The notes: generated from the sequence alone by a model not told the origin. 32,000 nucleotides of DNA from Nitrosopumilus zosterae (GCF_025998175.1 NZ_AP026695.1:932760-964759); one strand, 5' to 3'. Shown: positions 3,896 through 32,000, numbered from the stretch's first letter. Translations and numbers: made by a program.

Positions 3896-4822
3896 TCAGT
3901 AGTCATGCATTAACTTGTATTCCATGCTTTCTTTCCAATGACCACTGTCAATTTTAAACGAAGTGTTGCATTTTAAACAAAGAGATTCATTAGATATGTC
4001 TTGAAAAATTTCATTACACTTCTTACACAGGTATCTATTATGCAATACTCTGTAATCAACACCCAACGCCTTGATTTGTTTTTTACATTTAGGACATTTA
4101 TCATTATCATATGTTGATTCAGGGGAAAAATTTCCACAATCAAAATGTTCAATTAATTTCACTTGATCAAAATTAGAATTTTTGCAATTTGGGCATTGAT
4201 AAATCTGAGCAAGTTTCAAGCTTCCACAGGCATTACAACAGATCTCACGAATATTTTGCAGTGCTACAACTTTTCCTTCAGAAATAAGTTTTTGGAGATA
4301 TGTTGTAACATCCTTTTCAGATAGATTACTCTGTTCAATTAATCGTGATAGCGTTACACGTTTGTAAGTATTAAAGTAACGATCAATGAGATGACAACCA
4401 TCATTGTCTACAGATGAAGTATGTTCAAGAATGGATTCTTCTTCCTCTAAAATTTTCATTACATTTTTTATCGCTTCAAAATGAATTGGTTTTTGAATGT
4501 AATGATATGCTCCCAATCCAATTACTTCTTTAATTGGATCTTCATCTTTACCGCTTGCGGTTTCAATTATGATTTTTGTATTGGGTTGAATTATTAAAAT
4601 TTGAGACATTACAGATTTTGCATTTGTATCAGGAAGATTATAATCTAAGAACACCAATGGAATAATTTTGTTATTTATTAATTCTTTAAAAAGAGCTAAT
4701 CCAGATTCTCCAGTTGCAGTAGTTTTTATGTCAGCATAACCTAATTTTTTAAGAAATTCAGTTAGTAAAATCCCAATAGCCGTACTATCATCAATGATTA
4801 AGACTACATCTTTTGCACCCAT
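3896..4822 (-). CDS. Response regulator: CheY-like receiver + winged-helix-like segment + Cys-rich zinc-ribbon C-terminus
   Basis: Receiver motifs are present: IIDDS acidic pair, phospho-acceptor context LVFLDYNLPD, and conserved Lys-Pro in YIQKP. The C-terminus has at least four CxxC pairs (CNAC..CPNC, CPKC, CKKC..CLKC). Confidence 0.8.
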   Translation of the reverse strand: MGAKDVVLIIDDSTAIGILLTEFLKKLGYADIKTTATGESGLALFKELINNKIIPLVFLDYNLPDTNAKSVMSQILIIQPNTKIIIETASGKDEDPIKEVIGLGAYHYIQKPIHFEAIKNVMKILEEEESILEHTSSVDNDGCHLIDRYFNTYKRVTLSRLIEQSNLSEKDVTTYLQKLISEGKVVALQNIREICCNACGSLKLAQIYQCPNCKNSNFDQVKLIEHFDCGNFSPESTYDNDKCPKCKKQIKALGVDYRVLHNRYLCKKCNEIFQDISNESLCLKCNTSFKIDSGHWKESMEYKLMHDY

Positions 4823-16916: not shown

Positions 16917-17258
16917 TTACTTTGACTTCTTTTTACTTTTTTGAATTAATATTTTCTTTATTCTAGAAATTGTAGGGTAGCTGTATCCACGTCGACGATA
17001 ATTTGCTATCATCATCTTCCAATTTTTTAGTCTCCATTGAGCTTGCTCGGCAGTAACAGAATGAACTTCTTTTTGAATAATGCTTTTTCTTCCAACCTTA
17101 AGAGTTCCCGCATCTTTCGCAGACCATCGGTTTTTTGCGAATTTTAAACCTGTAAGAATTTCTTTTACAGGCATTTCTTTGAAATATTCTTTAATCTTTT
17201 TTAATTCTGCATCTGAAAGGTTATCAGAAATCGGTAACTCAATAGTGGTTTTTATCAT
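16917..17258 (-). CDS. Basic hypothetical protein (113 aa), Lys-rich tail
   Basis: ATG ORF with basic C-terminus RRRGYSYPTISRIKKILIQKSKKKSK, suggesting nucleic-acid binding. No family recognised. Confidence 0.5.
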   Translation of the reverse strand: MIKTTIELPISDNLSDAELKKIKEYFKEMPVKEILTGLKFAKNRWSAKDAGTLKVGRKSIIQKEVHSVTAEQAQWRLKNWKMMIANYRRRGYSYPTISRIKKILIQKSKKKSK

Positions 17259-20361: not shown

Positions 20362-21354
20362 ATGGGCGCTAGAAAGAACCATCAACCACGTAGAGGAAGT
20401 CTTGCATATTCACCTAGAATACGTGCTAAAAGTATGGAGGCACGAATTAGATCATGGCCAAAATTAAATTCAGAAGAACCAAAGATTTTAGCTCATTGTG
20501 GTTTCAAAGCAGGGTGTGTACAAATAGTAACTATCGATGATCGTGAAAAAGTTCCAAATGCAGGAAAACAACTTGTAAGCCTTGGAACAGTTCTAGTTAC
20601 ACCACCGGTATTAATTCTAGGTATTAGAGGATACTCAAAAGATCATGATGGAATGCATGCAGAATTTGATGTATATGCAGAAGATATTCCAAAATACATT
20701 TCAAAAGAAATTACAGTGAAAAACAAAGAAGGTGCATTAGACAATGCAGAAAAATCCCTTCGAAAAATTAAAGAGATTTTTGCAATTGTTGCCGTATCTC
20801 CACGTGCAGCAGGCTTAGAACAGAAAAAACCTTACATCTTTGAAGCTTCAGTTAGCGGAGGAGACATACAAAAACAATTTACTCATGTCAAAGAATTACT
20901 TGGAAAAGAGATCAAAATTGATCAGATTTTTGAAACAGGTGCAAGTGTAGATGTTGCAGCAATCACTAAAGGTAAAGGATGGCAAGGAGTTATTCAAAGA
21001 TGGGGAGTAAAAAAGAAACAACACAAATCAAGAAAGACAGTTAGAGAGGTAGGTTCACTTGGCCCAATTTCCCCACAAAGTGTCATGTATACAGTACCAA
21101 GAGCAGGACAAATGGGATTTCATCAAAGAATAGAATATGATAAACGAATCATGATTATGGGTAATACAAATGACGAGCAGATTAAAATCAATCCAGACGG
21201 AGGCTACAAACACTTTGGATTAGTAAAAGGAGATTTTATTATTCTAAAAGGATCCGTTCCAGGAACATATAGAAGATTGATTAAACTCAGAAGTCAGATT
21301 AGAAATGTGCCAGTTAAAATTACCAAGCCAAACATTTTGGAGGTCGTAATTTAA
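20362..21354 (+). CDS. rpl3: 50S ribosomal protein L3 (uL3)
   Basis: HQPRRGSLAYSPRIRA N-terminus. First gene of the conserved cluster. Confidence 0.95.
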   Translation: MGARKNHQPRRGSLAYSPRIRAKSMEARIRSWPKLNSEEPKILAHCGFKAGCVQIVTIDDREKVPNAGKQLVSLGTVLVTPPVLILGIRGYSKDHDGMHAEFDVYAEDIPKYISKEITVKNKEGALDNAEKSLRKIKEIFAIVAVSPRAAGLEQKKPYIFEASVSGGDIQKQFTHVKELLGKEIKIDQIFETGASVDVAAITKGKGWQGVIQRWGVKKKQHKSRKTVREVGSLGPISPQSVMYTVPRAGQMGFHQRIEYDKRIMIMGNTNDEQIKINPDGGYKHFGLVKGDFIILKGSVPGTYRRLIKLRSQIRNVPVKITKPNILEVVI

Positions 21355-22166
21355 TGAAAACAGCATCTTATTCAATAGCAGGAGTAAAGGATGGCGAAAT
21401 AGAGCTTCCACTAGTATTTTCAACTCCTTTTAGAAGAGAATTGATTCACAAAGCTTTTACCAATTTAACTTCACATAAATTCCAACCACAGGGAAGACAT
21501 CCATCTGCAGGTCAAGATGTGGTTGCAGATTCTAATGATCCACCAACAGGTCAAGGTGTAGCACGTGTTGCAAGAAGTTCTGGTGGAGGTGGCGGAAGAC
21601 AAGGACAAGGTGCAGAAGTTGCATCAACCAGAGGCGGGAGACAAGCACATCCGCCAATTGTAGGTAAAGTAATTTATAAAAAATTAAACAAAAAAGAAAA
21701 CAAATTAGCATTATGCTCCGCAATAGCTGCAACAGGTTCAAAAGAACTTGTTAAATTACGAGGCCATAAAATTGACGGGATTGAATCATTCCCAATCATA
21801 GTGTCTGACGAAATAGAATCAATGTCAAAAACAAATGAAATCTTCAAAGTATTAGATGCATTAAAACTCACACAAGATGTAGAAAGATTAGAATCAAGAA
21901 GACCACGTTCAGGACAATCGAGACTTAGAGGACGTAGTAAAAAAATCGGAAAGAGTGTTTTGTTTGTTACAAAAGATGCTTCAAATATCAAAAAGGCAAT
22001 AGGTGCGCTACCAGGAGTAGAAGCAAAAAGTGTCAAAGACTTAAGCATATTAGATTTAGCTCCAGGTTCAGATCCAATTAGATTAACAGTATATTCCAAA
22101 TCGGCAATTGAAGAAATTGCAAAAATTAAATCAACACATTTAGAGGTCATGGTGAAAACACAATGA
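21354..22166 (+). CDS. rpl4: 50S ribosomal protein L4 (uL4)
   Basis: Archaeal uL4 pattern (GQGVARVAR, GGRQAHPP). Position after L3. Confidence 0.95.
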   Translation: MKTASYSIAGVKDGEIELPLVFSTPFRRELIHKAFTNLTSHKFQPQGRHPSAGQDVVADSNDPPTGQGVARVARSSGGGGGRQGQGAEVASTRGGRQAHPPIVGKVIYKKLNKKENKLALCSAIAATGSKELVKLRGHKIDGIESFPIIVSDEIESMSKTNEIFKVLDALKLTQDVERLESRRPRSGQSRLRGRSKKIGKSVLFVTKDASNIKKAIGALPGVEAKSVKDLSILDLAPGSDPIRLTVYSKSAIEEIAKIKSTHLEVMVKTQ

Positions 22167-22429
22167 ACGTAGATCAAGCAAACAAAATCATTCTCAAACC
22201 ATACATTACAGAAAAAACATTTGCCATGGTAGAAAACGAAAGTAAAATTTGTTTTATTGTAGAACGATCTGCAAGTAAACCAGAAATTGCCGAAGCAGTA
22301 AAAGCACTATACAAAGAAAATGTCACTAACGTTAACACCGCAAGGACAATTTATGGTAAAAAAGCATTTGTTCAATTCGAAAATACAGAAAAAGCAAGAG
22401 ATTTGGCGACAAAGATAGGAATGCTATAA
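22163..22429 (+). CDS. rpl23: 50S ribosomal protein L23 (uL23)
   Basis: ILKPYITEKT and the overall uL23 pattern. ATGA overlap with L4. Confidence 0.9.
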   Translation: MNVDQANKIILKPYITEKTFAMVENESKICFIVERSASKPEIAEAVKALYKENVTNVNTARTIYGKKAFVQFENTEKARDLATKIGML

Positions 22430-22473
22430 TATGGACCACAAAGCTCAATGTACATTAACAGAGGAGAAGAAGA

Positions 22474-22869
22474 TTGGTTAAAGAATTTCTATACAGAGGC
22501 ATTCCAAAAGAGGATCTTGACAGCATGTCCTTAGAAAAATTATTCCTATTATTCAATTCCAGACAGAGAAGATCCCTTACAAGAGGAATTACCGATGGAA
22601 AGAGAAAATTGATTGAAGAGATCAAAGCTGCAAAAGCAGGAAAAGTAAAAAATCCCATAAAGACACATGTTAGAGACTTGATTGTTTTACCATACATGGT
22701 GGGTGTTACAGTAAATGTATTTTCAGGAAAAGAATTTCGTCCAGTAAGTATTACCGCAGAAATGATTGGGCATTATTTAGGAGAATACGTAATAACAAAC
22801 AAGAGAGTTTCACACGGCGCACCTGGTGTTGGTGCATCAAGATCCAGTCTCTACGTACCATTAAAGTGA
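22474..22869 (+). CDS. rps19: 30S ribosomal protein S19 (uS19)
   Basis: RQRRSLTRG and C-terminal MIGHYLGEYVITNKRVSHGAPGVGASRSS. TTG start preceded by GAGGAG. Confidence 0.9.
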   Translation: MVKEFLYRGIPKEDLDSMSLEKLFLLFNSRQRRSLTRGITDGKRKLIEEIKAAKAGKVKNPIKTHVRDLIVLPYMVGVTVNVFSGKEFRPVSITAEMIGHYLGEYVITNKRVSHGAPGVGASRSSLYVPLK

Positions 22870-23333
22870 TTATCATGGGTAGATTCAATTACGCTTTCCA
22901 AAATTATGATGCAACAAAACACGTACGTTCATCATTACGAGAAAAAGATATTTCACACAAGCATGCACGTGAGGTGGCTGTTTCTATCAAAGGATTATCA
23001 ATTGAAAAAGCAAGAGATTATCTAATTGCAGTAGTTAACAAAAAAAGAGCGGTTGCGTTTAGAAGATATAAGAATCAAGTAGGACATAAATCAGATCCAG
23101 GAATGATGTCAGGACGTTATCCACAAAAAACAGCAAAAGAGTTTATCAAAGTTTTAGATAATTTAGAATCAAATGCAGAATACAAAGGAATGGATTTAGA
23201 TAGATTACGAATTATTAATGCCACTGTCCACAAAGGAGTAATTGTTAAGAGATTCATCCCAAGAGCTATGGGAAGGGCAACTCCCAAAAACAACGTACTG
23301 ACACATGTAGAATTGGTGGCACAGGAGATTTAG
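22866..23333 (+). CDS. rpl22: 50S ribosomal protein L22 (uL22)
   Basis: uL22 pattern ([25 protein letters not shown]). Start is GTG at 22866 or ATG at 22875. Confidence 0.9.
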
Positions 23334-23335
23334 AA

Positions 23336-24091
23336 ATGTCAGCAGTCAAAAACGTAATCAAAGACAACTACAACATGATGCTTCTGAAAGACTATCTAAG
23401 AGAAGCAATTAAGGATGCAGGATTTTCTCATGCAGAGATTTCAAAAACTCCAGTAGGAACCAGAGTTGCATTACATGTAACTAGACCAGGCATAGTTATT
23501 GGAAGAAAAGGTTCTGGAATCAGAACATTAACAGACAAACTTGCATCAGACTTTGGATTAAAAAATCCACAAATTTCAGTAGTAGAAATTGAAAAACCAG
23601 AGTTATCTCCAAGCGTCATGTGTAATAGAATGGCAGCACATTTGGAGAGAGGAACTGCTTTTAGAAGGGCAACTATGTGGACACTAAAACAAATTATGGA
23701 AAATGGTGCCATGGGTGTTCAAATTACAATATCAGGTAAACTAAGAGGAGATCGTTCTGCATTTGAGAAACACACTGCAGGAATTTTACCAAGAGCAGGT
23801 CACCATGCAGAAGTAATAGTTGCAGAAGACATTGCACACGTAAAAACAGCCATGGGTTTAATTGGAATTAGAATAAGAATTGCTAGAAAAGATAAATTAA
23901 TTCCCGAATTTGAAATGAAGACTCAAAAAGCAATGAAGATTAAACAAGTCAAAGATGAAGACACAGGAAAAATGAGAGATGAAACTATAGCAGAGACAAA
24001 AGCAAGAACAGAATCAGAACAAATTGCACTAGAAGAAGAAAGAATGAAAGAGCTTGAAACGCTAGAAGAAGAAGAGGCCAGATTCAAATGA
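23336..24091 (+). CDS. rps3: 30S ribosomal protein S3 (uS3)
   Basis: KH-domain region [14 protein letters not shown]. Charged C-terminal tail. Confidence 0.95.
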
Positions 24092-24294
24092 CCAGGATAA
24101 GCATGAAGACAATAAAGCAGTTAAATGAAAAAGATCTTAAAAGCAAGATTCAAGAGGCACGCAGTGAACTTGCAAAACTCAGAGTCGATGCTTCCAAAGG
24201 AACTCTAAGAAAAGAAAGTGGTAAACTAAAACCTCTTAGACATGATATTGCAAGGATGCTAACTAGAATAAACGAGATGAAGAAAGAGAAATGA
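24088..24294 (+). CDS. rpl29: 50S ribosomal protein L29 (uL29)
   Basis: Small helical protein ([16 protein letters not shown]) in the conserved position after S3. Confidence 0.9.
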
Positions 24295-24557
24295 TCACAG
24301 CAGACAATATCACATCACATGAATTTATCGGATTACATACAGAGATTGTTAAATCCACAAATCCACAAGTTATAGGATTAAATGGAAGAATCATAAATGA
24401 AACAAAATCGATGTTTACAATAAATACAGAAAAAGGAATAAAATCAATTGCAAAATCAACAAACAATTGGAAATTTTCAATTGAGAATAAAGATGTGATT
24501 GTGGAAGGGTCTAGAATTACAAAAAGACCATTTGATAGAATAGGAGATAAGGCATGA
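24291..24557 (+). CDS. rnp1: RNase P protein component 1 (Rpp29/Pop4 homologue)
   Basis: HEFIGLHTEIVKSTNPQVIGLNGRIINETKSMF matches the archaeal Rpp29 pattern. Canonical archaeal position between L29 and S17. Confidence 0.85.
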   Translation: MITADNITSHEFIGLHTEIVKSTNPQVIGLNGRIINETKSMFTINTEKGIKSIAKSTNNWKFSIENKDVIVEGSRITKRPFDRIGDKA

Positions 24558-24877
24558 CACGGAATATTGGATTAAAAGTGAAAGAACCAAAGGGAGAATG
24601 TGCAGATAAACATTGTCCATTCCATGGAAATTTGTCAATTAGAGGAAAGCTCTTTGATGGCAAAGTGACAGGAAGTAAGGCAAGACAAACAATTACGTTA
24701 CAAAAAGATGCACCAATTTATTTTAGCAAATTTAAGAGATATGCAAGAGGGACAAGTACGATTCATGCACATGTACCTGAATGTATTAATGTTGAAACAG
24801 GAAATCATGTTTTAACTGCAGAGTGCAGGCCGATATCAAAATCAGTGTCATATGTAGTTGTAGAGGTTAGATCATAA
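24554..24877 (+). CDS. rps17: 30S ribosomal protein S17 (uS17)
   Basis: CxDxxCPFHG N-terminal motif (CADKHCPFHGNLSIRG). Confidence 0.95.
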   Translation: MTRNIGLKVKEPKGECADKHCPFHGNLSIRGKLFDGKVTGSKARQTITLQKDAPIYFSKFKRYARGTSTIHAHVPECINVETGNHVLTAECRPISKSVSYVVVEVRS

Positions 24878-25299
24878 TGGCAAAACAAGCAGGTAAGGGA
24901 GTAGAAGAATTCCGCCCATATGTCACACGTTCAATACCCGTAGGAGCAAATATTGTATGTGCAGACAACTCAGGTGCCAAAATTTTAGAGATCATCAATG
25001 TACCAAGACATAAAACAAGAGTGTCACGACTTCCTGCAGCAGCAGTAGGAGATTTCTGTAATGTTGTAGTAAAGAAAGGGCCAGCAGAGTTGAGAAAACA
25101 AGTGTATGGCGCAGTTATTGTTCGACAAAAATATGCAGTTCGTAGATTAAACGGGGTTAGAGTTTGTTTCGAAGACAATGCAGCAGTATTAATCACGCCC
25201 GAAGGAGAAACAAAAGGAACAGACATCAAAGGACCAGTAGCTGCAGAAGCTTCAGAAAAATGGCCAAGAGTAGCTAACTTGGCATCAATGGTGGTATAA
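24877..25299 (+). CDS. rpl14: 50S ribosomal protein L14 (uL14)
   Basis: [14 protein letters not shown] motif. Confidence 0.95.
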
Positions 25300-25303
25300 G
25301 AAA

Positions 25304-25756
25304 ATGAAGCCAACAAAAATGCGTAACAAGATGATGTATCAAGCAACATTCCAAACTAGAAGTAAGCAACTTGGAAGTGCATTATCAAAAGAACTTCGTA
25401 AAAAATATGGCAAGAGAAGTGTTCGGGCTATTGAAGGAGACAGCGTAACTATACTTAGAGGAGAATTCAAAGGAGTTGAAGGAAAAATATCCAAAGTATC
25501 TACAGAAAAGAGCAGTGTTGCAATTGAAGGAGTCAAAAAAGAAAAAACAAAAGGAGACAAATTTGATGTTTATATTCACACATCCAATCTGGTAGTAACA
25601 TCACTTAGTACTGATGATAGGTGGAGAATTTCAAAACTAGAAGGTAAAGATCCAAGGAAACAACCCAAAGAAACACAGGTAAAAGATAAACCAGTTGAAG
25701 AAGAGACTAAAGAAACAAAAGTAGCAAATAAAGAAAAAAAGGAAGATGAGAATTAA
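25304..25756 (+). CDS. rpl24: 50S ribosomal protein L24 (uL24) with long Lys/Glu-rich C-terminal extension
   Basis: KOW motif region [21 protein letters not shown]. About 45-aa KE-rich tail. Confidence 0.9.
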
Positions 25757-26472
25757 TGGTAAGTATTAGTGGAAGTAAAAAACTCAAACGTCAAATGGCC
25801 CCACAGTTTTGGGGAATTGCTAGAAAAGATAAAAGATTCGTAATCAATGTAAAACCAGGTCCACATAAAAGGAACCACGCAGTACCAACGGCAGTATTTC
25901 TAAGAGATATGTTAAAAATTGTAACTAGTCTTAGAGAAGCAAAAGCTTCAATTTATTCGGGCAAAGTAAAGGTTGATGGGATTGTAAGAAAATCATTACA
26001 TCATGCAATAGGATTAATGGATGTAGTAGAATTAGAAAATGTTTCAGATATTTATCGTCTGGTTCCAACCGAAGAGAAATTACTAAAACCGATAAAGATT
26101 AACGAATCAGAGAAATCGAAAAAATTAGTTAGAGTCACGACCAAAACTACAATTGGCAAAGGCCAAACACAAATAGGATTTCATGACGGACGTTCAATCA
26201 TTTCAGACAGTAAAGTAAATGTTGGTGACACATGCTTGATACAAATTCCAGATGTAAAAATACTTGAAATAATAAAATTAGAAGTAGGCAGTCACGGATT
26301 AGTTACACGTGGAAATAATACCGGGAGAATTGGCAGAATAGAAACAATCGAAGAAGGAACATTCATTCTTCCAAAAAGAGTTATCTTATCATTAGATGAA
26401 AGAAAAATCGAAATTCCAGCAGACATCATTATGTCAATAGGTAAAGGAGAGCCAGTTATTCAAATAAAGTGA
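25756..26472 (+). CDS. rps4e: 30S ribosomal protein S4e (eS4)
   Basis: GSKKLKRQMAPQFWGI...KPGPHK N-terminus. Confidence 0.95.
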   Translation: MVSISGSKKLKRQMAPQFWGIARKDKRFVINVKPGPHKRNHAVPTAVFLRDMLKIVTSLREAKASIYSGKVKVDGIVRKSLHHAIGLMDVVELENVSDIYRLVPTEEKLLKPIKINESEKSKKLVRVTTKTTIGKGQTQIGFHDGRSIISDSKVNVGDTCLIQIPDVKILEIIKLEVGSHGLVTRGNNTGRIGRIETIEEGTFILPKRVILSLDERKIEIPADIIMSIGKGEPVIQIK

Positions 26473-26476
26473 TCAT

Positions 26477-26998
26477 ATGTCTCAAACAACAGAACCAATA
26501 ATGAAAAAAATATCTCTCGAGAAAATAGTTCTCAATATGGGAGTAGGTAAATCAGGAGATTCAATTAACATTGCAAAAAAAGCACTGGATCAAATATCAG
26601 GAAAAAAATCATCATCGAGAGCTGCCAAAGAAACACAAAGAGATTGGGGAGTTAGAAAAGGCGAACCAATAGGTGTAGCAGTAACAATTCGTGGAGATGA
26701 CGCAAAAGAACTACTAAAAAGATTGTTAGAAGCAAAAGGAAATACAGTCAATGGCAAATCATTTGATAACTTTGGGAATTATTCATTTGGAATTAAAGAA
26801 CACATAGACATTCCAGGGGTAAAATATGATCCGCAAATAGGAATTTTGGGTTTAGGAATCTCAATCACATTAACAAGACCAGGTTACGGAATTAGGAATA
26901 GAAGTAAACACAAAGCAAGTGTCGGAAAAAAACACATAATCAGCAATCAAGAAGCAAAGGATTATCTAGTAAAAGAATTCGGAGTGACAGTAGCATAA
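26477..26998 (+). CDS. rpl5: 50S ribosomal protein L5 (uL5)
   Basis: LEKIVLNMGVG motif and position. Confidence 0.95.
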   Translation: MSQTTEPIMKKISLEKIVLNMGVGKSGDSINIAKKALDQISGKKSSSRAAKETQRDWGVRKGEPIGVAVTIRGDDAKELLKRLLEAKGNTVNGKSFDNFGNYSFGIKEHIDIPGVKYDPQIGILGLGISITLTRPGYGIRNRSKHKASVGKKHIISNQEAKDYLVKEFGVTVA

Positions 26999-27177
26999 TG
27001 GCAAAAGATAGATCATACGAGACTACTGGAAGAAAAAAGCATGATTTTGGCAGAGGTTCAAGATGGTGTAAAAGATGCGGAGATTATACAGCTGTAATTC
27101 AAAAATATGATTTAATGCTATGCAGACGATGCTTCAGAGAAGTCGCAACATCTTTAGGGTTTAGGAAAAATAAGTGA
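26998..27177 (+). CDS. rps14: 30S ribosomal protein S14 (uS14, zinc-binding type), not in the ORF track (59 aa)
   Basis: Hand translation: MAKDRSYETTGRKKHDFGRGSRWCKRCGDYTAVIQKYDLMLCRRCFREVATSLGFRKNK. CxxC...CxxC zinc ribbon. The ATG overlaps the L5 stop (TAATG). Canonical slot between L5 and S8. Confidence 0.9.
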   Translation: MAKDRSYETTGRKKHDFGRGSRWCKRCGDYTAVIQKYDLMLCRRCFREVATSLGFRKNK

Positions 27178-27183
27178 TATAAC

Positions 27184-27576
27184 ATGCCAGCAACGAACAT
27201 TTTAGCAAATCTATTTGTCACACTATACAATAATGAAACAAGAAGGAAAAGAGATTGTGTGATTCTTCCAACTTCAAAACTCGGAATCGAAGTTTTAAAG
27301 ACACTTCAAAAGGATGGATATATTGGAGAGTTTGAACATATTGATGATAAAAGGGGAGGTAAATTCAAAATCAAATTATTGGCCAAAATTACAAAATGTG
27401 GAGCAATTTCTCCAAGATTCAAGGTAAAAAACGACGAATACAATAATTGGGAACAGCAATACTTACCAGCATACGACAGAGGAATGTTACTTGTTACAAC
27501 TAATCAAGGAGTAATGTCCCATCATGACGCATTAGAAAAAGGAATTGGAGGATTTTTAATCGGATATGTCTACTAA
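27184..27576 (+). CDS. rps8: 30S ribosomal protein S8 (uS8)
   Basis: LANLFVTLYNNE N-terminus and GGFLIGYVY C-terminus. Confidence 0.95.
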   Translation: MPATNILANLFVTLYNNETRRKRDCVILPTSKLGIEVLKTLQKDGYIGEFEHIDDKRGGKFKIKLLAKITKCGAISPRFKVKNDEYNNWEQQYLPAYDRGMLLVTTNQGVMSHHDALEKGIGGFLIGYVY

Positions 27577-28123
27577 ACAAATGGAAAAATTTCAGGACGA
27601 AGTGATCATTCCAGAAGGCGTTAAAATCACATTAAACAAACACATGTTGTCGTTTGTAGGACCACTTGGCAAAACTTTCAAAAACTTTAGAACTATACCA
27701 GTAAATCTTGAGATTACTGAAAGTAAAGTTATCTTAAACACCATAGGCAGTAGAAATAAAGATTATGCAATTTTACATACAGCAAGATCTATCATTAGAA
27801 ATATTTGCGAAGGCTTGGTAGAAGGGTATACAATTAAAATGAAAATTGTTTATGCACACTTTCCAATCACATTAAAAGTAGAAGGGAAAAAAATCCTAAT
27901 TGAAAATTTCCAAGGAGAAAGAGCTCCAAGAATTACAAAAATTGTCGGAAACACCAAAGTGATTCCTAAAGGTGAAGATGTAATTCTAACAGGCGAAGTA
28001 TGGACAGATATCACTCAAACTGCAGCAAATATCGAACAAAAAACCAAAGTAAAAAATAAAGACCACAGGGTTTTCTTAGATGGGATATATGCTTTTGAGA
28101 AAAAGAAAGGCTTAGAAAAGTAA
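27566..28123 (+). CDS. rpl6: 50S ribosomal protein L6 (uL6)
   Basis: IPEGVKITL...LSFVGPLG pattern. Last r-protein gene in the cluster here. Confidence 0.95.
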   Translation: MSTKQMEKFQDEVIIPEGVKITLNKHMLSFVGPLGKTFKNFRTIPVNLEITESKVILNTIGSRNKDYAILHTARSIIRNICEGLVEGYTIKMKIVYAHFPITLKVEGKKILIENFQGERAPRITKIVGNTKVIPKGEDVILTGEVWTDITQTAANIEQKTKVKNKDHRVFLDGIYAFEKKKGLEK

Positions 28124-28140
28124 AACCACCAGTTTTTCTA

Positions 28141-28428
28141 ATGACCCTTGATCCTGAATTTTCAAAACAAACAACAGATTTGATTGAACAGACTCTAGAG
28201 TTATACAAATCTGCAGGAGCATCACCTAGAGTTGGAGAAACATGGGATTGTGCAAACATAGGAGATTTTTTGTGTGGTTTTTTTGTTGGAGAGATGGTGG
28301 GTTCAGCACTCAGTGCATTTCAAATTGTGCATCAAAGAGAACCAACAGCTGATGAACACCTAGAAATCATTGAATTAGTTGAAAGTCATGCAAAAGAGAT
28401 CAAAGAATTTTTTGCAAAATTCAATTAA
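28141..28428 (+). CDS. Hypothetical protein (95 aa), not a ribosomal protein
   Basis: ATG ORF 17 nt after L6. Occupies the slot where archaeal clusters normally continue with L32e/L19e/L18. No family recognised. Confidence 0.5.
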   Translation: MTLDPEFSKQTTDLIEQTLELYKSAGASPRVGETWDCANIGDFLCGFFVGEMVGSALSAFQIVHQREPTADEHLEIIELVESHAKEIKEFFAKFN

Positions 28429-28499: not shown

Positions 28500-28573
28500 G
28501 CCTCCCTAGCTCAGCGTGGTAGAGCATCCGGCTGTTAACCGGATGGTCAACAGTTCAAGTCTGTTGGGAGGCG
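28500..28573 (+). tRNA. tRNA-Asn (anticodon GTT)
   Basis: Hand-folded cloverleaf of 74 nt. Acceptor GCCTCCC/GGGAGGC, D stem GCTC/GAGC, anticodon stem TCCGG/CCGGA with loop CT-GTT-AA, T stem AACAG/CTGTT with loop TTCAAGT, discriminator G. No encoded CCA. Confidence 0.95.
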
Positions 28574-28643
28574 CCTCATATTTTTAAACTTGAGATCTGA
28601 AATATTGTGTTTCATGTCTTTGATAACACCATAGAAAAACAAC

Positions 28644-28671
28644 ATATTTCTAAATTCGAATTTAGAAATAT
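28644..28671. promoter_or_regulatory. 28-bp perfect palindrome ATATTTCTAAATTCGAATTTAGAAATAT (motif copy 1)
   Basis: Exact self-reverse-complement. Lies 71 nt after the tRNA and 89 nt before the zinc-ribbon gene. Confidence 0.8.
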
Positions 28672-28759
28672 TGATCGGTTGATAGTAATTAGTTTAGACT
28701 ATTAGACAACATAGATCTAATAGATGATCGCATATCAAGAATAATGCAGGAGGTTTACA

Positions 28760-29008
28760 TTGGTCAGGATTAGAAGGGCCAACAGATATTGTGTAGATTG
28801 TGGGGCAAGGTTGGTGTATTATCCAAGATTATCAAATCCTAAAGCACCAAATGAACATAGAGTCTTAGTATATGCATGCCCTGATTGCACCGACGACTTT
28901 GAAAAGCCCAAAATGTTTTCCATAAGACGAAATCAGGTGGAAGATCCGCTAGAAACAGTAGAAATAGAGATTACACAGCTACAGAAAAAATCAATAGGTA
29001 CAAAATAA
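28760..29008 (+). CDS. Small zinc-ribbon protein (82 aa)
   Basis: CVDC...CPDC four-Cys motif. TTG start with GGAGG 6 nt upstream. Confidence 0.6.
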   Translation: MVRIRRANRYCVDCGARLVYYPRLSNPKAPNEHRVLVYACPDCTDDFEKPKMFSIRRNQVEDPLETVEIEITQLQKKSIGTK

Positions 29009-29018
29009 TTAGAAAAGT

Positions 29019-29246
29019 ATGACATATTCTGAAAAGCCAAGAAGCAATGCATGGTTTTTGTTGCCAGTGTTTTTAGGAATAATTGGAGGGATAATCGCTT
29101 ATTTTGTTTTACGTAATGATGATCCACGTAAAGCCAAGAATTGTTTGTATCTAGGTCTTGTTTTGATGGGGATAGGGATAATATTCAATATGTTGATAGC
29201 AGCATCAATTCCAGGCATAGAGTCAGGATTCAATGTTAATGTATAA
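29019..29246 (+). CDS. Small two-TM membrane protein (75 aa)
   Basis: Two hydrophobic helices (WFLLPVFLGIIGGIIAYFVL, LYLGLVLMGIGIIFNMLIAA) separated by RNDDPRKAKN. Starts 10 nt after the zinc-ribbon gene. Confidence 0.6.
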   Translation: MTYSEKPRSNAWFLLPVFLGIIGGIIAYFVLRNDDPRKAKNCLYLGLVLMGIGIIFNMLIAASIPGIESGFNVNV

Positions 29247-29282
29247 CCACAAAAAACATTGTTTTCCAGACAGTAATTTTGA

Positions 29283-29310
29283 ATGTTTCTAAACTCGAAA
29301 TTAGAAATAT
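29283..29310. promoter_or_regulatory. Palindromic motif copy 2 (ATGTTTCTAAACTCGAAATTAGAAATAT)
   Basis: 24 of 28 positions identical to copy 1. Lies 37 nt after the preceding stop and 65 nt before the ATG at 29375. Confidence 0.75.
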
Positions 29311-29374
29311 CATTAATTTACACTACAAACTATTGAATTTAGAATCATATAGAACTAGTTCAAGTTGTTTTAAC

Positions 29375-29824
29375 ATGAGTGCATCCAGGTTACGCGATAA
29401 TGTCGAAAGATGGTTGATACATGAAGGACTGTCTTTTGAAGAAATAAAGAGTGCAGAAAATTCTTTCCAAATTTTAGCAAAGCACGCAGGTCAAGCAGAC
29501 ATTCCTGTTGAAATATTTGAACCAAAAGGCCAGCCAGGAATTCTGGTAATTGGAGCCAAAGTTGTAATGAAAAACAACCAGATTGCACGTTATTTGGGAT
29601 TTAATGCACAAGAAAAAGAGAACTTTGAAAAAAAAGTGACAGATTTTTGCCATTCAATTCAGGCTATTAATAAAATCATTACAGAAGATGGCAAACAAAA
29701 AATCGGAGTTTATGTTGTTCTAGACGATAAAGAAAACATCAACCAACAGACAGTTTTTGATGCAATAGACAGTGTATCAGAAAAACATGAAAAGACGTCG
29801 AGATTTTTGTTGAAAACATTTTAA
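29375..29824 (+). CDS. Hypothetical cytoplasmic protein (149 aa); weak recollection of a YbjN/DUF2299-like archaeal family
   Basis: The track ORF starts at TTG 29279, but that extension covers the palindromic motif. The ATG at 29375 (MSASRLRDNVERW...) has an ATCATATAG TATA-like box about 27 nt upstream. Confidence 0.55.
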   Translation: MSASRLRDNVERWLIHEGLSFEEIKSAENSFQILAKHAGQADIPVEIFEPKGQPGILVIGAKVVMKNNQIARYLGFNAQEKENFEKKVTDFCHSIQAINKIITEDGKQKIGVYVVLDDKENINQQTVFDAIDSVSEKHEKTSRFLLKTF

Positions 29825-29885
29825 AAAAATAGATGATTTATCAGTTCTACGCGGGTCTTATATCTAAAATTCACCAATATACGAT

Positions 29886-30035
29886 ATGAAAACAACAATT
29901 TTTCCAGAAAAAAATACAAAAAGACAGAGTTCAAAAGGAAATTTTTTAGAAAACCAGATTTTGAAATTCAAGGCTTCAAAGAATAAAGTATTCATTTTGA
30001 CAGCAATTGCAACAATAATGGTGGTTGTAAAATGA
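29886..30035 (+). CDS. Micro-ORF A (49 aa), C-terminal hydrophobic helix
   Basis: MKTTIFPEKNTKRQSSKGNFLENQILKFKASKNKVFILTAIATIMVVVK. CTTATATC lies about 25 nt upstream of the ATG. The stop overlaps the next start (ATGA). Confidence 0.4.
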   Translation: MKTTIFPEKNTKRQSSKGNFLENQILKFKASKNKVFILTAIATIMVVVK

Positions 30036-30154
30036 GTATTTTCAACATATTATTCAAACACACCGCAAAGAATTATGAGATCAATGTCAGCATCAACGTC
30101 AATAGACTCAGACTAGAAAATGCAACATCAAGATTGGAGGTTATTCAAAATTGA
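30032..30154 (+). CDS. Micro-ORF B (40 aa)
   Basis: MSIFNILFKHTAKNYEINVSINVNRLRLENATSRLEVIQN. ATGA overlap upstream and TTGA overlap downstream. Confidence 0.35.
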   Translation: MSIFNILFKHTAKNYEINVSINVNRLRLENATSRLEVIQN

Positions 30155-30219
30155 GCATATTAAAAATCATAGGAGAAATTCTAGAAGCATATGAAAAAAC
30201 AGAAGGTCAGCCACCATGA
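30151..30219 (+). CDS. Micro-ORF C (22 aa, TTG start)
   Basis: (M)SILKIIGEILEAYEKTEGQPP. Bridges ORFs B and D through 4-nt overlaps. Confidence 0.25.
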   Translation: MSILKIIGEILEAYEKTEGQPP

Positions 30220-30308
30220 GTAATTTTTTCAAAGTAATCGGGATTGCATTAGCCATACATTTCATTGTGAAAACAGTTCAAAAAGAATTGAAACAATTTG
30301 AAGTGTAG
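30216..30308 (+). CDS. Micro-ORF D (30 aa), hydrophobic N-terminal half
   Basis: MSNFFKVIGIALAIHFIVKTVQKELKQFEV. ATGA overlap with ORF C. Followed by a GGGGG-ATAAA-CCCCC(C) hairpin. Confidence 0.35.
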   Translation: MSNFFKVIGIALAIHFIVKTVQKELKQFEV

Positions 30309-30581
30309 ATGGACGCATCTCTTTTGGGGGATAAACCCCCCTATCACACATAAAATGTGTGTACAAAATGCATACACACCATAAAATCAAATTTTGAACA
30401 AGAATGAGAAAAATAGAATTACAGTTGATGAATCAGCAATTAATAACGCATTTGTATCCACAGATAATCTTTGATGAGTTTAGAGAATTATCATAATTCT
30501 TTTTTTCAAATATTTGATTGAGCAACACAGATTTCTAAAAATAGTCTAAAATAACAGAATTTATCAAAATCAAGCCTAGGC

Positions 30582-30661
30582 GTTAAACCCCCCTTGAAAA
30601 ACGGTGCATTTAGTCACAAGATGATTTTTTCAAAATTACTAGTTTTAAGGGGGGGTTTAAC
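30582..30661. repeat. 19-bp inverted repeat GTTAAACCCCCCTTGAAAA / TTTTAAGGGGGGGTTTAAC separated by 42 bp
   Basis: Arms at 30582-30600 and 30643-30661. 18 of 19 positions are complementary, ignoring one extra G in the G7 tract. Flanked by GCCTAGG and GCCTGG. Confidence 0.85.
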
Positions 30662-30970
30662 ACTCGTGCCTGGATATGAGATGCAATCATCAAACCACCA
30701 AGCTCTCCCATCTAATCATACCCCAAGTTTTATTGTCGTGCGTAAAAGCTAAACCCTCTAAATTTTGATCAAAAAAGCATCCAAATCAGGCAATCATGAC
30801 CAAGAATTCAAGTAATTACACATTCAAAAACCATGAATATTCATTAAATCTCAAGACGATAAATGTGCGATTTTAACAAAAATTTGGCTGAAAAAGAGGG
30901 GGGATGCAGGATATGTTTTTGCCATTATTGATGCGTTTCAACTATATAACAAAATAATCAGAGTTATTTC

Positions 30971-31456
30971 ATGGCAGGAATGGGCGTAATTATTGTGATC
31001 GGCGCCATCATAGCTTCAATGGTTGTTGCAAATTACATGTATATACAATATACAACAAATTACATCGAGGCAGTTGCAGGAAAGCCAATCATGGTAGGTC
31101 CGGTGGAATACGCCATAACATTTGAAGGAACTCATGAAGGAAGTAAAGAAATGATGCCAGAAAATACATTTGTAAAAATTGGAATTACAGCCAAAAACAC
31201 CAGTGATGAAAAAACAATCCTTTCAGGAGGACAATTTTACATTGTTGATGAAAAAGATCAAAAACATGAGGCAGTATTCGGAGAGTTTTCTTCTAAAGAC
31301 CTATTCCTAGAATCATTAGAGCCAAACAAATCGATTGAGAGAACAACGCAGTTTGATATTCCATTTGATGAAGAAAAAAAATACAAAATAATTATTCGGC
31401 CACAAAAAGATCAATCAACAGTTGATACAGCTGTTGTTTGCATAAGAAATTGTTGA
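30971..31456 (+). CDS. Membrane-anchored extracytoplasmic protein, tentatively DUF4352-like beta-sandwich
   Basis: N-terminal TM helix. Pattern FVKIGITAKNTSDEKTILSGGQFYIVDEKDQKHE resembles recalled DUF4352 domains. ACTATATAAC box about 25 nt upstream of the ATG. Confidence 0.55.
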   Translation: MAGMGVIIVIGAIIASMVVANYMYIQYTTNYIEAVAGKPIMVGPVEYAITFEGTHEGSKEMMPENTFVKIGITAKNTSDEKTILSGGQFYIVDEKDQKHEAVFGEFSSKDLFLESLEPNKSIERTTQFDIPFDEEKKYKIIIRPQKDQSTVDTAVVCIRNC

Positions 31457-31548
31457 TCGTAAAACAAAAAATGTGTCAAATTTTTCTATAGTTTATGTTG
31501 TAATGTATGACTTTTACCATATAACACACATGATTTTCGCAAAAAGTT

Positions 31549-31932
31549 ATGGCAATATCCAAAGCCAAAAGAGCAGAAGCAGCTAAAAAAGCAGCAAGAA
31601 CTCGAAAGAGAAATGCAGCTAAAGCAGCCGCAGAAGCACTAAAAGCAGCCGCAGCTCGTAAGAGAAAGGCAGCAGCAACTCGAAGGAAGAACGCTGGCAA
31701 GGCAGCTCCAAAGAGAAAGGCAGCAGCAAAACGCAGAGCCGCTCCAAAGAGAAAGGCAGCGCCTAAGAGAAGAACTGCAGCTAAAAAAGCAGCTCCAAAG
31801 AGAAAGGCAGCAGCAAAACGCAGAGCCGCTCCAAAGAGACGTACTGCAGCTAAAAAAGCAGCTCCAAAGAGAAAGGCAGCAGCAAAACGCAGAGCCGCTC
31901 CAAAGAGAAAGGCAGCTAAACGTCGACGTTAA
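31549..31932 (+). CDS. Highly basic Ala/Lys/Arg/Pro-repeat protein (histone H1 / AlgP-tail-like)
   Basis: 127 aa made almost entirely of A, K, R and P, with repeats AAPKRKAAAKRRAAPKRRTAAKK. Much more GC-rich than its surroundings. Confidence 0.65.
   Translation: MAISKAKRAEAAKKAARTRKRNAAKAAAEALKAAAARKRKAAATRRKNAGKAAPKRKAAAKRRAAPKRKAAPKRRTAAKKAAPKRKAAAKRRAAPKRRTAAKKAAPKRKAAAKRRAAPKRKAAKRRR
31702..31920 (+). repeat. Imperfect tandem DNA repeats (units of 87 and 69 bp plus a partial third) inside the AKRP-rich CDS
   Basis: GCAGCTCCAAAGAGAAAGGCAGCAGCAAAACGCAGAGCCGCTCCAAAGAGA recurs at 31702, 31789 and 31858. The first unit carries an 18-bp insertion. Confidence 0.85.
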
Positions 31933-31977
31933 GCTGTCTATACTATCTTTTTTCTTATTTTACATATTGGATTTAGT

Positions 31978-32000
31978 ATATTTCTAAACTCGAATTTAGA
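31978..32000. promoter_or_regulatory. Palindromic motif copy 3 (ATATTTCTAAACTCGAATTTAGA...), truncated by the window end
   Basis: 22 of the 23 visible positions are identical to copy 1. Lies 46 nt after the AKRP gene stop. Confidence 0.7.

What the first reader, a model, noticed from the sequence alone, without database searches (positions are those of the whole stretch)
28644..32000. Three copies of a 28-bp palindromic motif TTTCTAAA(T/C)TCGAA(T/A)TTAGAAATAT bracketing the accessory genes
Copy 1 (28644-28671) is a perfect 28-bp palindrome. Copy 2 (29283-29310) and copy 3 (31978-32000, cut by the window edge) match copy 1 at 24/28 and 22/23 visible positions. All three are intergenic: 71 nt after the tRNA, 37 nt after the 75-aa membrane gene, and 46 nt after the AKRP gene. 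They also lie upstream of the next transcription unit. Copies 2 and 3 share the asymmetric variant AAACTCGAA. So the sequence itself is conserved, not just the ability to form a hairpin, which argues for a dimeric DNA-binding-protein operator or a recombination/boundary site rather than a generic terminator. I saw no further full copy elsewhere in the 32 kb, so the motif is local to this island.
Basis: seen in the sequence. Interest (0 to 1): 0.68.

Follow-up and report, generated by a model that had tools for sequence, protein, structure and literature searches.

The report
Conserved 28-bp palindrome bounding archaeal gene cassettes
The three palindromes are real copies of a 28-bp DNA site that is almost unchanged across ammonia-oxidizing archaea, sits at one chromosomal locus per genome at the edges of small gene cassettes, and also occurs in tiny marine viruses, which points to an undescribed protein-binding (probably recombination) site.

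Summary
There are three intact copies (28644-28671, 29283-29310, 31978-32005) and a decayed fourth copy directly after tRNA-Asn (28578-28605). The motif is not peculiar to this island. ATRTTTCTAAAYTCGARTTTAGAAAYAT occurs at 207 sites in about 104 Nitrososphaeria genome fragments (Nitrosopumilus, Nitrosotenuis, Nitrosotalea, Cenarchaeum, Nitrososphaera). Nearly all lie in one syntenic neighbourhood, with 1-5 copies each, all intergenic. In Nitrosopumilales the array starts about 3 nt after tRNA-Asn and ends about 9 nt after a PNPOx-like gene; the cassettes in between vary. In Nitrososphaera two copies flank bioB-bioF, which is found in both orientations with breakpoints inside the motif, next to a conserved serine recombinase. 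About 46 circular 4.2-kb marine viral genomes with no recognizable integrase or Rep each carry one copy between divergent operons. Variable half-site positions change independently, the hairpins are weak, and no cdc6 is nearby. Best reading (about 0.45): the core site of a dimeric site-specific DNA-binding protein, working as a recombination or boundary (dif/res/att-like) site and possibly also as an operator. Main rival (about 0.3): a pure operator. The binding protein is unknown. I found no description of the motif in the literature I could search.

The parts
28500..28575 (+). tRNA-Asn(GTT); constant left boundary of the motif array
   Evidence: ARAGORN and Rfam. In about 40 Nitrosopumilales loci a motif core starts 3-10 nt after this tRNA's 3' end.
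28578..28605 (.). Decayed motif copy (M') directly after the tRNA
   Evidence: Position-weight score 12.3. It sits where other genomes have an intact copy, as the first of a tandem pair spaced 59-82 bp.
28644..28671 (.). Motif copy 1, perfect 28-bp palindrome
28672..28759 (+). 88-nt leader between copy 1 and the zinc-ribbon gene; DNA highly conserved; GGAGG at 28749-28753 before a TTG start
   Evidence: Alignment of 16 loci. The 87-88 nt spacing recurs at 35 sites.
28760..29008 (+). 82-aa zinc-ribbon protein (CxxC...CxxC), first gene of cassette 1
   Evidence: 75-94% identical in 53 Nitrosopumilales loci. Only a sub-threshold Pfam DZR hit.
29019..29246 (+). 75-aa membrane protein, second gene of cassette 1
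   Evidence: The largest ORF cluster among the related loci (39 loci); found by tblastn in 46 sequences.
29283..29310 (.). Motif copy 2, boundary between cassettes 1 and 2
   Evidence: The same junction (75-aa gene 3' end | motif | DUF2299 gene 5' end) occurs in 30 loci.
29335..29348 (-). Orphan motif half-site (ATGATTCTAAATTC on the minus strand) in the DUF2299 upstream region
   Evidence: Recurs 40-54 nt from copy 2 in eight other genomes.
29375..29824 (+). DUF2299 protein, first gene of cassette 2
   Evidence: Pfam PF10061, E = 2.4e-22.
30971..31456 (+). DUF4352 protein, cassette 2
   Evidence: Pfam PF11611, E = 1.2e-11.
31549..31932 (+). Lys/Arg/Ala/Pro-rich repeat protein (AKRP), last gene of cassette 2
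   Evidence: Internal 18-87-nt repeats; no family hit.
31978..32000 (.). Motif copy 3 (runs to 32005 beyond the window); right boundary of the array, 9 nt before the stop of a convergent PNPOx-like gene
   Evidence: The PNPOx 3' end | motif junction with a 9-nt gap occurs at 16 sites.

Best explanation
The motif, here called M, is the core binding site of a sequence-specific protein that binds as a symmetric dimer. M has two 11-bp arms around TTCGAA, or equivalently 13+CG+13. It marks the edges of discrete gene cassettes at a single chromosomal locus in ammonia-oxidizing archaea. I commit to M being a site-specific recombination or attachment site of the dif/res/att kind. Strand exchange within M would have inserted, removed or inverted the DNA between copies. 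In Nitrososphaerales the adjacent conserved serine recombinase is the likely enzyme. In Nitrosopumilales, which includes this window, the enzyme is encoded elsewhere and is unknown. Small circular viruses that encode no recognizable recombinase carry one M each and presumably borrow the host protein, for multimer resolution or integration. Where M abuts promoters the bound protein may also repress them, as resolvase does at Tn3 res.

Shown: conservation of the sequence, restriction to one locus, cassette-boundary positions, inversion breakpoints inside M, presence in viruses, and independent variation of the half-sites.

Inferred: protein binding, strand exchange, and the identity of the protein.
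For: 1. M is conserved across the class. There are 207 sites in about 104 Nitrososphaeria fragments, and information content drops sharply outside the 28 bp.
2. Nearly all hits lie in one syntenic neighbourhood, with 1-5 copies per 8-kb block, all intergenic.
3. The outer half-junctions are constant and the content between them varies. The array starts 0-6 nt after the tRNA-Asn 3' end and ends with its mode 9 nt from the PNPOx stop. The cassettes in between are present or absent in different genomes.
4. M sits 2-10 nt from gene 3' ends (bioF, trx, PNPOx, tRNA), as cassette or att sites do.
5. In Nitrososphaera the bioB-bioF segment between two copies of M occurs in both orientations. All flank distances are preserved and the flanking sequences stay with their own side, so the breakpoints lie within M to about 3 nt.
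6. A conserved chromosomal serine recombinase (Resolvase + HTH_7, with catalytic RVST and a GRP arm) lies 0.2-1.6 kb from M in 18-19 Nitrososphaerales loci.
7. 46 of 47 viral contigs of about 4.2 kb assemble as circles. Each carries M inside a 44-bp palindrome, and no integrase or Rep is detectable. One of them, L125, has two hybrid M sites flanking an inverted two-gene block.
8. Metagenomic contigs break near M. In 18 of 60 loci M lies within 300 bp of a true contig end, including contigs of 11-46 kb. This points to structural variation among strains.
9. Half-sites vary independently and the hairpins are weak.
10. Thaumarchaea are reported to lack XerA (PMC2958812).
Against: No recombinase gene lies near M in the window or in any Nitrosopumilales locus. 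The Nitrososphaera recombinase has only rare relatives, so no abundant Nitrosopumilales orthologue is apparent.

In Nitrosopumilales the cassette order and orientation are the same in all 30 comparable loci. That is unexpected if fully palindromic sites recombined often.

No integrated copy of the 4.2-kb virus was found; the longer contigs are concatemers. The viral proteins have no homologues in the chromosomal cassettes.

Only one or two independent inversions can be inferred. A 28-bp inverted repeat could also cause rare inversions without a dedicated enzyme.

The fixed spacing to start codons, and the position in viruses exactly between divergent promoters, are equally well explained by an operator.
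Confidence: 0.45

Rival explanations
1. M is purely an operator. A conserved dimeric transcription factor, perhaps the nearby 113-aa protein here called 'p15' or the 82-aa zinc-ribbon protein, binds M to control the adjacent small genes. Viruses carry the same operator in their control region. The rearrangements at M are by-products of having a perfect palindrome.
For: M lies at fixed distances from start codons: 88 nt to the zinc-ribbon gene, 51-67 nt to DUF2299, about 60-63 nt to bioB, and 20-36 nt to p15. The leader downstream of M is highly conserved. Tandem copies 59-82 bp apart look like cooperative operators. In the 4.2-kb viruses the centre of M is about 43 nt from the start codons of both divergent operons, with TATA-like sequence abutting each arm. 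In the 61-kb viral contig L157 an M-like site is followed by a T-rich box and a small ORF 63 nt downstream. Cassette order in Nitrosopumilales is stable.
Against: At 22 chromosomal sites M lies between two gene 3' ends, and at about 24 more between the tRNA 3' end and another copy of M, with no promoter next to it. The genes next to M differ between orders (bio genes, cdvB-like and p15 in one set; zinc-ribbon and DUF2299 in the other), so there is no conserved regulon. p15 in this window has no M nearby. p15 matches no known DNA-binding fold, and neither p15 nor the zinc-ribbon protein has viral homologues. 28-bp near-invariance over a whole class is unusual for an operator.
Confidence: 0.3
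2. M is a replication-origin element (ORB-like) or a centromere-like (parS-like) loading site. The small viruses copy it to recruit the host replication or segregation machinery.
For: M occurs at one locus per genome, is conserved class-wide, and forms clusters of a few palindromic copies. Viruses with no recognizable Rep carry it.
Against: No orc1/cdc6 gene lies within the 32-kb window or the 8.5 kb beyond it. The N. maritimus origin is described as ORB repeats next to the cdc gene at the start of the genome (PMC5797428; PMC4164010). The copies of M are separated by genes rather than flanking an AT-rich unwinding region. Transcription converges on the locus. No ParB-like gene was seen.
Confidence: 0.07
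3. M is a transcription terminator or an RNA hairpin, for example the tRNA-Asn 3' trailer or a bidirectional terminator between convergent genes.
For: Many copies sit 0-10 nt after gene 3' ends. Copy 1 can form a 12-bp hairpin.
Against: The hairpins are AT-rich and weak (-7.4, -4.1 and -4.3 kcal/mol), and copies 2 and 3 do not differ from shuffles. There is no terminator-pattern hit. Mirror positions do not co-vary. It is the sequence that is conserved, not the pairing. In the viruses M lies between two start codons, upstream of both. There is no Rfam hit.
Confidence: 0.03
4. M is a generic dispersed repeat (REP or MITE) or a degenerate CRISPR-like array.
For: Tandem copies at 59-82 bp periods resemble repeat-spacer spacing, and the unit is palindromic.
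Against: There are only 1-5 copies, all at one syntenic locus. No block shows more than three tandem units. No cas genes were seen. The window holds no other copy in 32 kb. The 16 hits outside Nitrososphaeria lack the conserved flanks and fit chance expectation (my estimate for a 17-base pattern in 596 Gb).
Confidence: 0.02

Closest known systems
Xer/dif chromosome-dimer resolution sites, and the elements that exploit them (IMEX such as CTX-phi; plasmid cer/psi sites; Acinetobacter pdif modules)
   Same: The site is 28 bp, with 11-bp inverted arms around a 6-bp centre. It occurs at one chromosomal locus and is conserved over a very wide phylogenetic range. Small circular elements that encode no recombinase carry one copy. 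Gene modules bounded by repeated copies form arrays next to the primary site. A comparable route, from a mobile element to a host dif system, was used in Legionellales (PMC9765430).
   Different: M is a perfect palindrome including its centre, so it has no built-in polarity. There are 2-5 copies instead of one. The arms do not resemble the Pyrococcus abyssi dif (ATTGGATATAA TCGGCC TTATATCTAAA). Thaumarchaea are reported to lack XerA. Location at the replication terminus is unverified. No integrated viral copy was found.
Crossover sites of small serine recombinases (Tn3/gamma-delta res site I; hix/gix/cix sites of Hin/Gin/Cin invertases)
   Same: They are 26-28-bp palindromes with an A/T-rich inner part around a central dinucleotide (from my own knowledge of these systems). 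In Nitrososphaerales a Resolvase + HTH_7 gene lies just outside a segment flanked by two copies of M, and that segment occurs in both orientations, as with cin/gin beside their invertible segments. The viral copy lies between divergent operons, as res lies between tnpA and tnpR.
   Different: The recombinase is missing from all Nitrosopumilales loci, including this window, yet M is equally conserved there. No accessory subsites or enhancer were identified. The inverted segment carries housekeeping biotin-synthesis genes. The central CG is itself palindromic.
Integron attC sites and gene cassettes
   Same: M starts a few nt after ORF stops. It bounds small cassettes of variable content in a single array, with one fixed end.
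   Different: attC sites are 55-140-bp imperfect palindromes that are conserved in structure, not in sequence. They are recognized as folded single strands by an adjacent IntI. Here the site is a 28-bp sequence-conserved perfect palindrome, and no integrase lies nearby.
Palindromic operators of dimeric archaeal or viral repressors
   Same: Dyad symmetry, independent variation of the half-sites, tandem copies, and positions overlapping or abutting promoters in the viruses and at p15.
   Different: Many copies have no adjacent promoter. The neighbouring genes are not conserved between orders. No regulator has been identified.

Membership tests
Xer/dif site | 28-bp site: two 11-bp inverted arms separated by a 6-bp central region | tested here: met
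   ATATTTCTAAA TTCGAA TTTAGAAATAT. Information content stops at the edges of the 28 bp. The definition comes from PMC8371274.
Xer/dif site | Single copy per chromosome | tested here: not met
   There are 3 intact copies and 1 decayed copy in the window, and 1-5 per locus elsewhere.
Xer/dif site | Sequence similarity to known dif arms | tested here: not met
   Compared by eye in register with the P. abyssi dif, about 3 of 11 arm positions match.
Xer/dif site | A cognate Xer-type tyrosine recombinase encoded in the genome | not testable with these tools
   No whole genome was available. The literature states that Thaumarchaea lack xerA (PMC2958812). None was seen in the window.
Xer/dif site | Location in the replication-termination region | tested here: inconclusive
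   Genes converge on the locus. In the N. sediminis AR2 record the locus lies at about 0.43 of the sequence length, but I could not check the origin coordinate of that record. GC skew in the window follows the coding strand.
Serine-recombinase crossover site (res site I / hix-gix type) | 26-28-bp dyad-symmetric site around a central dinucleotide | tested here: met
   13 + CG + 13. The comparison with res and hix rests on my own knowledge of those sites.
Serine-recombinase crossover site (res site I / hix-gix type) | Cognate small serine recombinase encoded next to the site | tested here: not met
   Absent from the window, from L121 and from all Nitrosopumilales loci. Present only in Nitrososphaerales loci.
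Serine-recombinase crossover site (res site I / hix-gix type) | DNA between two sites found inverted or deleted, with breakpoints in the site | tested here: met
   bioB-bioF in Nitrososphaera species and the viral genome L125. No inversion was seen in Nitrosopumilales; there only the presence or absence of cassettes varies.
Integron attC | Adjacent IntI integrase, and structured imperfect palindromes of 55-140 bp | tested here: not met
   No integrase in the window. The site is a 28-bp perfect palindrome.
Archaeal replication origin (ORB elements) | Adjacent orc1/cdc6 gene, and ORBs flanking an AT-rich unwinding element | tested here: not met
   No orc1/cdc6 in about 40 kb. The copies are separated by genes. 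The N. maritimus origin is placed at ORB repeats plus the cdc gene.
Intrinsic terminator | Stable G+C-rich hairpin followed by a T run | tested here: not met
REP/MITE dispersed repeat | Tens to hundreds of copies dispersed through the genome | tested here: inconclusive
   There are no other copies in the 32-kb window or in the 20-kb stretches L121 (same genome) and L193 (N. sediminis AR2; L193 was not scanned formally). Nearly all of the 120 database hits fall in one syntenic locus.
CRISPR array | Many repeat-spacer units, usually with cas genes | tested here: not met
   At most three tandem units (L062), and no cas genes were seen.

The most novel reading that the evidence does not exclude
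M is the missing 'dif' of ammonia-oxidizing archaea. This lineage is reported to lack XerA. It would resolve chromosome dimers at M with a non-Xer enzyme: the adjacent serine recombinase in Nitrososphaerales, and an unidentified enzyme in Nitrosopumilales. An abundant family of 4.2-kb marine viruses with no recombinase of their own, together with the cassette array next to tRNA-Asn, would exploit the same machinery, as IMEX elements and cer plasmids exploit XerCD.
Probability: 0.2. Interest if true: 0.9.

Novelty: new variant of a known kind. Interest (0 to 1): 0.72.

Why it matters
Ammonia-oxidizing archaea are among the most abundant microbes on Earth, and almost nothing is known about their cis-acting DNA sites, their site-specific recombination or how their viruses interact with them. 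A 28-bp site that is nearly invariant from soil Nitrososphaera to marine Nitrosopumilus, and that viruses share, gives a concrete handle on all three. The sequence can be used to pull down the protein that binds it. It can also be used to ask how these archaea resolve chromosome dimers without XerA. It allows uncultured viruses to be assigned to thaumarchaeal hosts. It could serve as a recombination or landing site for genetic tools in organisms that currently have none.

Tried and rejected
- The motif sequence was searched as text in the paper library. Only unrelated hits came back, mostly human and mouse studies. Keyword searches for a thaumarchaeal dif or a conserved palindrome found nothing relevant.
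- Rfam found only the tRNA. An E-value scan of 29800-31000 found nothing.
- Origin hypothesis: no cdc6 in the window, and the literature places the N. maritimus origin at ORB repeats plus cdc6. The Pelve 2013 paper is not held.
- Looking for a Nitrosopumilales orthologue of the Nitrososphaera recombinase: the top 120 homologues are all of the Nitrososphaera type. The 50%-identity representative search gave only rare relatives with no organism names.
- p15 as the binding protein: no Pfam, NCBIfam or PDB sequence hit. The AlphaFold model is mediocre (pLDDT 69.5) and has no fold match.
- Zinc-ribbon protein: the single-sequence model is unusable (pLDDT 53.5).
- No viral homologues of p15 or the zinc-ribbon protein.
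- Integrated copies of the 4.2-kb virus: none found. The longer contigs are concatemers.
- The virus is not in the GenBank phage set.
- Three Python calls were lost to server errors.
- GC skew could not separate a replication effect from a coding-strand effect.

Full report
**1. The observation.**
The window has about 32% G+C and carries a Nitrosopumilus-type gene set. An identical stretch occurs in GCA_003175215.1. Copy 1 (28644-28671) is the perfect palindrome ATATTTCTAAATTCGAATTTAGAAATAT. Copy 2 (29283-29310) matches it at 25/28 positions. Copy 3 begins at 31978 and is cut by the window end. Its complete form, read from L121, is ATATTTCTAAACTCGAATTTAGAAACAT. No shuffle of the window produced a match. 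A position-weight matrix built from related sites finds nothing else in the 32 kb apart from a decayed copy at 28578-28605, 2 nt after tRNA-Asn.

**2. The motif is not local; it is conserved across the class.**
I scanned one genome per prokaryotic species for TTCTAAANTCGANNTTAGAA. About 104 of them are from Nitrososphaeria: Nitrosopumilus, Nitrosarchaeum, Nitrosopelagicus, Nitrosotenuis, Nitrosotalea, Cenarchaeum, Nitrososphaera and relatives. The 16 hits from other phyla lack the conserved flanks. A 17-base pattern in 596 Gb should give tens of chance hits (my estimate), which fits those 16. From 207 sites the consensus is ATRTTTCTAAAYTCGARTTTAGAAAYAT, and information content collapses just outside these 28 bp. 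The variable mirror positions 3 and 26 change independently (83, 39, 43 and 19 in the four classes; Fisher p = 1). Positions 12 and 17 are only loosely associated. As single-stranded DNA the copies fold at -7.4, -4.1 and -4.3 kcal/mol, and copies 2 and 3 fold no better than shuffles. The terminator scan finds nothing at the motif. This pattern fits a dimeric protein that reads two half-sites. It does not fit a structural hairpin.

**3. One locus per genome, at cassette boundaries.**
I clustered the ORFs of all loci. Nearly every hit lies in the same neighbourhood.
- In Nitrosopumilales the order is: ribosomal-protein operon ending at L6, a 95-aa gene, tRNA-Asn, M (often two copies 59-82 bp apart), zinc-ribbon gene, 75-aa membrane gene, M, DUF2299 (with or without DUF4352 and the AKRP gene), M, then the 3' end of a convergent PNPOx-like gene followed by an ArsR-type gene and the pur genes.
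- The outer half-junctions are constant. The tRNA 3' end lies 0-6 nt from M in about 37 sites. The PNPOx stop lies about 9 nt from M at 16 sites.
- The inner content varies. Different genomes lack DUF2299, DUF4352, AKRP or the whole second cassette.
- Each cassette type has its own fixed edge distance: 87-88 nt to the zinc-ribbon start, with a strongly conserved leader; about 30-43 nt after the 75-aa gene; and 51-67 nt before DUF2299.
- In Nitrosotalea, Nitrosotenuis and one Nitrosopumilaceae genome, M instead bounds p15, a CdvB-like (Snf7) gene and a thioredoxin/DsbD pair. In this window the same genes lie 11-15 kb upstream with no M beside them.
- Contigs of short-read MAGs end near M far more often than expected. 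In 18 of 60 loci M is within 300 bp of a true contig end, including contigs of 11-46 kb. This suggests co-existing structural variants.

**4. Rearrangement exactly at M, and a recombinase next door, in Nitrososphaera.**
In Nitrososphaerales two copies of M about 2.2 kb apart flank bioB-bioF. On one side are p15 and the CdvB-like gene. On the other is a 197-aa protein with Resolvase and HTH_7 domains, followed by bioA and bioD. In two genomes, represented by three loci (L010, and L066 with L084), the bioB-bioF segment is inverted relative to about 13 others. Every distance is kept: bioF stop 2 nt from M, bioB start about 60-63 nt, p15 start 20-36 nt. The recognizable flank sequences stay attached to their own side. 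The breakpoints therefore lie within M. Whether this was one event or two is unclear. The recombinase is 70-90% identical across 18-19 loci and is syntenic, so it is a vertically inherited chromosomal gene. It is absent from the window and from all Nitrosopumilales loci. Its relatives in a 1.8-billion-protein library are few and rare. It therefore cannot explain why M is conserved in Nitrosopumilales.

**5. The same site in viruses.**
A scan of IMG/VR gave 61 stretches. Forty-seven are contigs of 3.9-4.8 kb. Forty-six of those have terminal overlaps, meaning they are circular genomes of 3.94-4.56 kb. Each carries a full M, usually inside a 44-bp palindrome such as GATCTTAAATGTTTCTAAATTCGAATTTAGAAACATTTAAGATC.
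- They share about 11 small genes with no Pfam or PHROG assignment and no detectable Rep or integrase. Relatives of one protein carry a phage tail-collar domain, and some genomes encode a C5 DNA methylase.
- They are common in marine metagenomes, including TARA.
- The centre of M lies about 43 nt from the start codons of two divergent operons, with TATA-like sequence abutting each arm.
- One genome, L125, has two hybrid sites, each with one good and one poor arm, flanking an inverted two-gene block.
- Longer contigs are concatemers, not integrated copies.
- A 61.6-kb viral contig (L157) has an M-like site with one changed base in a divergent intergenic region.
- The viral proteins have no homologues in the chromosomal cassettes.

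**6. Readings excluded.**
- Replication origin: there is no orc1/cdc6 in about 40 kb. The N. maritimus origin is described as ORB repeats beside the cdc gene.
- Terminator or RNA element: see section 2. In addition, the viral copies lie upstream of both neighbouring genes.
- REP, MITE or CRISPR: too few copies, a single locus, and no cas genes.

**7. Interpretation.**
Two models survive.
- Recombination or boundary site (best, about 0.45). This accounts for the position next to tRNA-Asn, the snug fit against gene 3' ends, the fixed edges of each cassette with variable content between constant outer junctions, the inversion breakpoints, the hybrid sites in L125, the contig breaks, the neighbouring recombinase, and the presence of one copy in small circular genomes that have no recombinase of their own (compare cer sites and IMEX elements).
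- Operator (about 0.3). This accounts for the fixed promoter distances, the viral position between divergent promoters, the tandem copies, and the long-term stability of cassette order in Nitrosopumilales. It does not account for the copies between convergent 3' ends, or for the fact that the neighbouring genes differ between orders.

The two models are compatible with each other, as at Tn3 res. The binding protein remains unidentified. p15 is ubiquitous (2641 homologues), helical, and has an invariant GYSYPTISRIK segment, but no known fold matched it.

**8. Novelty.**
I found no description of this motif, of a thaumarchaeal dif equivalent, or of the 4.2-kb virus family. Cortez et al. state explicitly that Thaumarchaea lack xerA and may use another recombinase. 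The element is best filed as a new variant of the palindromic recombination-core or operator kind. It fails the single-copy test, the sequence-similarity test and the recombinase test for dif. In this window it also fails the adjacent-recombinase test for res- or hix-type sites.

Noticed in passing
window 30555-30785 (inside the 1.1-kb gene-poor stretch 29825-30970): A noncoding element of about 220 nt is conserved at 70-78% identity in more than 40 Nitrosopumilales loci, including Nitrosotalea. It has two direct copies of (A)GCTAAACCCC(C) about 165 nt apart and an inverted GGGGGGGTTTAAC between them. The C-run/G-run pairing is invariant, with no compensatory changes. There is no Rfam hit. It may be an undescribed ncRNA or a further cis element.
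   Followed up: partly
L123-L182 (IMG/VR contigs), e.g. L134: A family of circular marine viral genomes of about 4.2 kb with roughly 11 small ORFan genes: three zinc-ribbon proteins, an Arg/Lys-rich 70-aa protein, Gly/Ala-rich membrane proteins and a tail-collar-like protein. No Rep or integrase is recognizable. The family is absent from the GenBank phage set. The shared motif suggests thaumarchaeal hosts.
   Followed up: partly
L139, L142 compared with the other 4.2-kb viral genomes: The central gene block of these two viral genomes is inverted relative to the others. One breakpoint falls at a motif-like half-site (TTTCTAAA) formed by the overlapping stop codons of two convergent genes.
   Followed up: partly
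L157 6327-6355 (61.6-kb IMG/VR contig): A near-perfect motif copy lies in an 870-bp divergent intergenic region of a large viral contig, next to a P-loop ATPase gene and small ORFs.
   Followed up: partly
window 20362-28428: The large ribosomal-protein operon stops after L6. It is followed by a 95-aa gene, tRNA-Asn and the cassette array. The genes that usually follow L6 in archaea (L32e, L19e, L18, S5 and so on) are not in the window or in the 8.5 kb beyond it.
   Followed up: no
window 16917-17258 (-): 'p15' is a 113-aa helical protein with an invariant C-terminal GYSYPTISRIK segment. It has 2641 homologues, all annotated as hypothetical. In Nitrososphaerales and Nitrosotalea its start codon lies about 8-36 nt from a motif copy. 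In this window it has no motif nearby.
   Followed up: partly
window 213-3059 (+): A 948-aa protein has an N-terminal polysaccharide-deacetylase domain and a long pentapeptide-repeat region built from near-identical 75- and 225-nt DNA repeats.
   Followed up: no
window 3896-4822 (-): A response-regulator receiver is fused to the thaumarchaeal output domain TackOD1. I found no link to the motif.
   Followed up: no
window 31549-31932 (+): The AKRP gene is made of nested 18-, 69- and 87-nt repeats that encode an Ala/Lys/Arg/Pro-rich, histone-H1-like protein. Its length and presence vary between genomes.
   Followed up: no
L003, L015, L068, L072 (2.0-2.8-Mb Nitrosopumilus MAG chromosomes): In these larger genomes the motif locus is flanked by proteins that look, by inspection of their sequences, like IS630-, IS66- and IS5-type transposases and large P-loop GTPases. 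The locus appears to be a hotspot for insertions.
   Followed up: no
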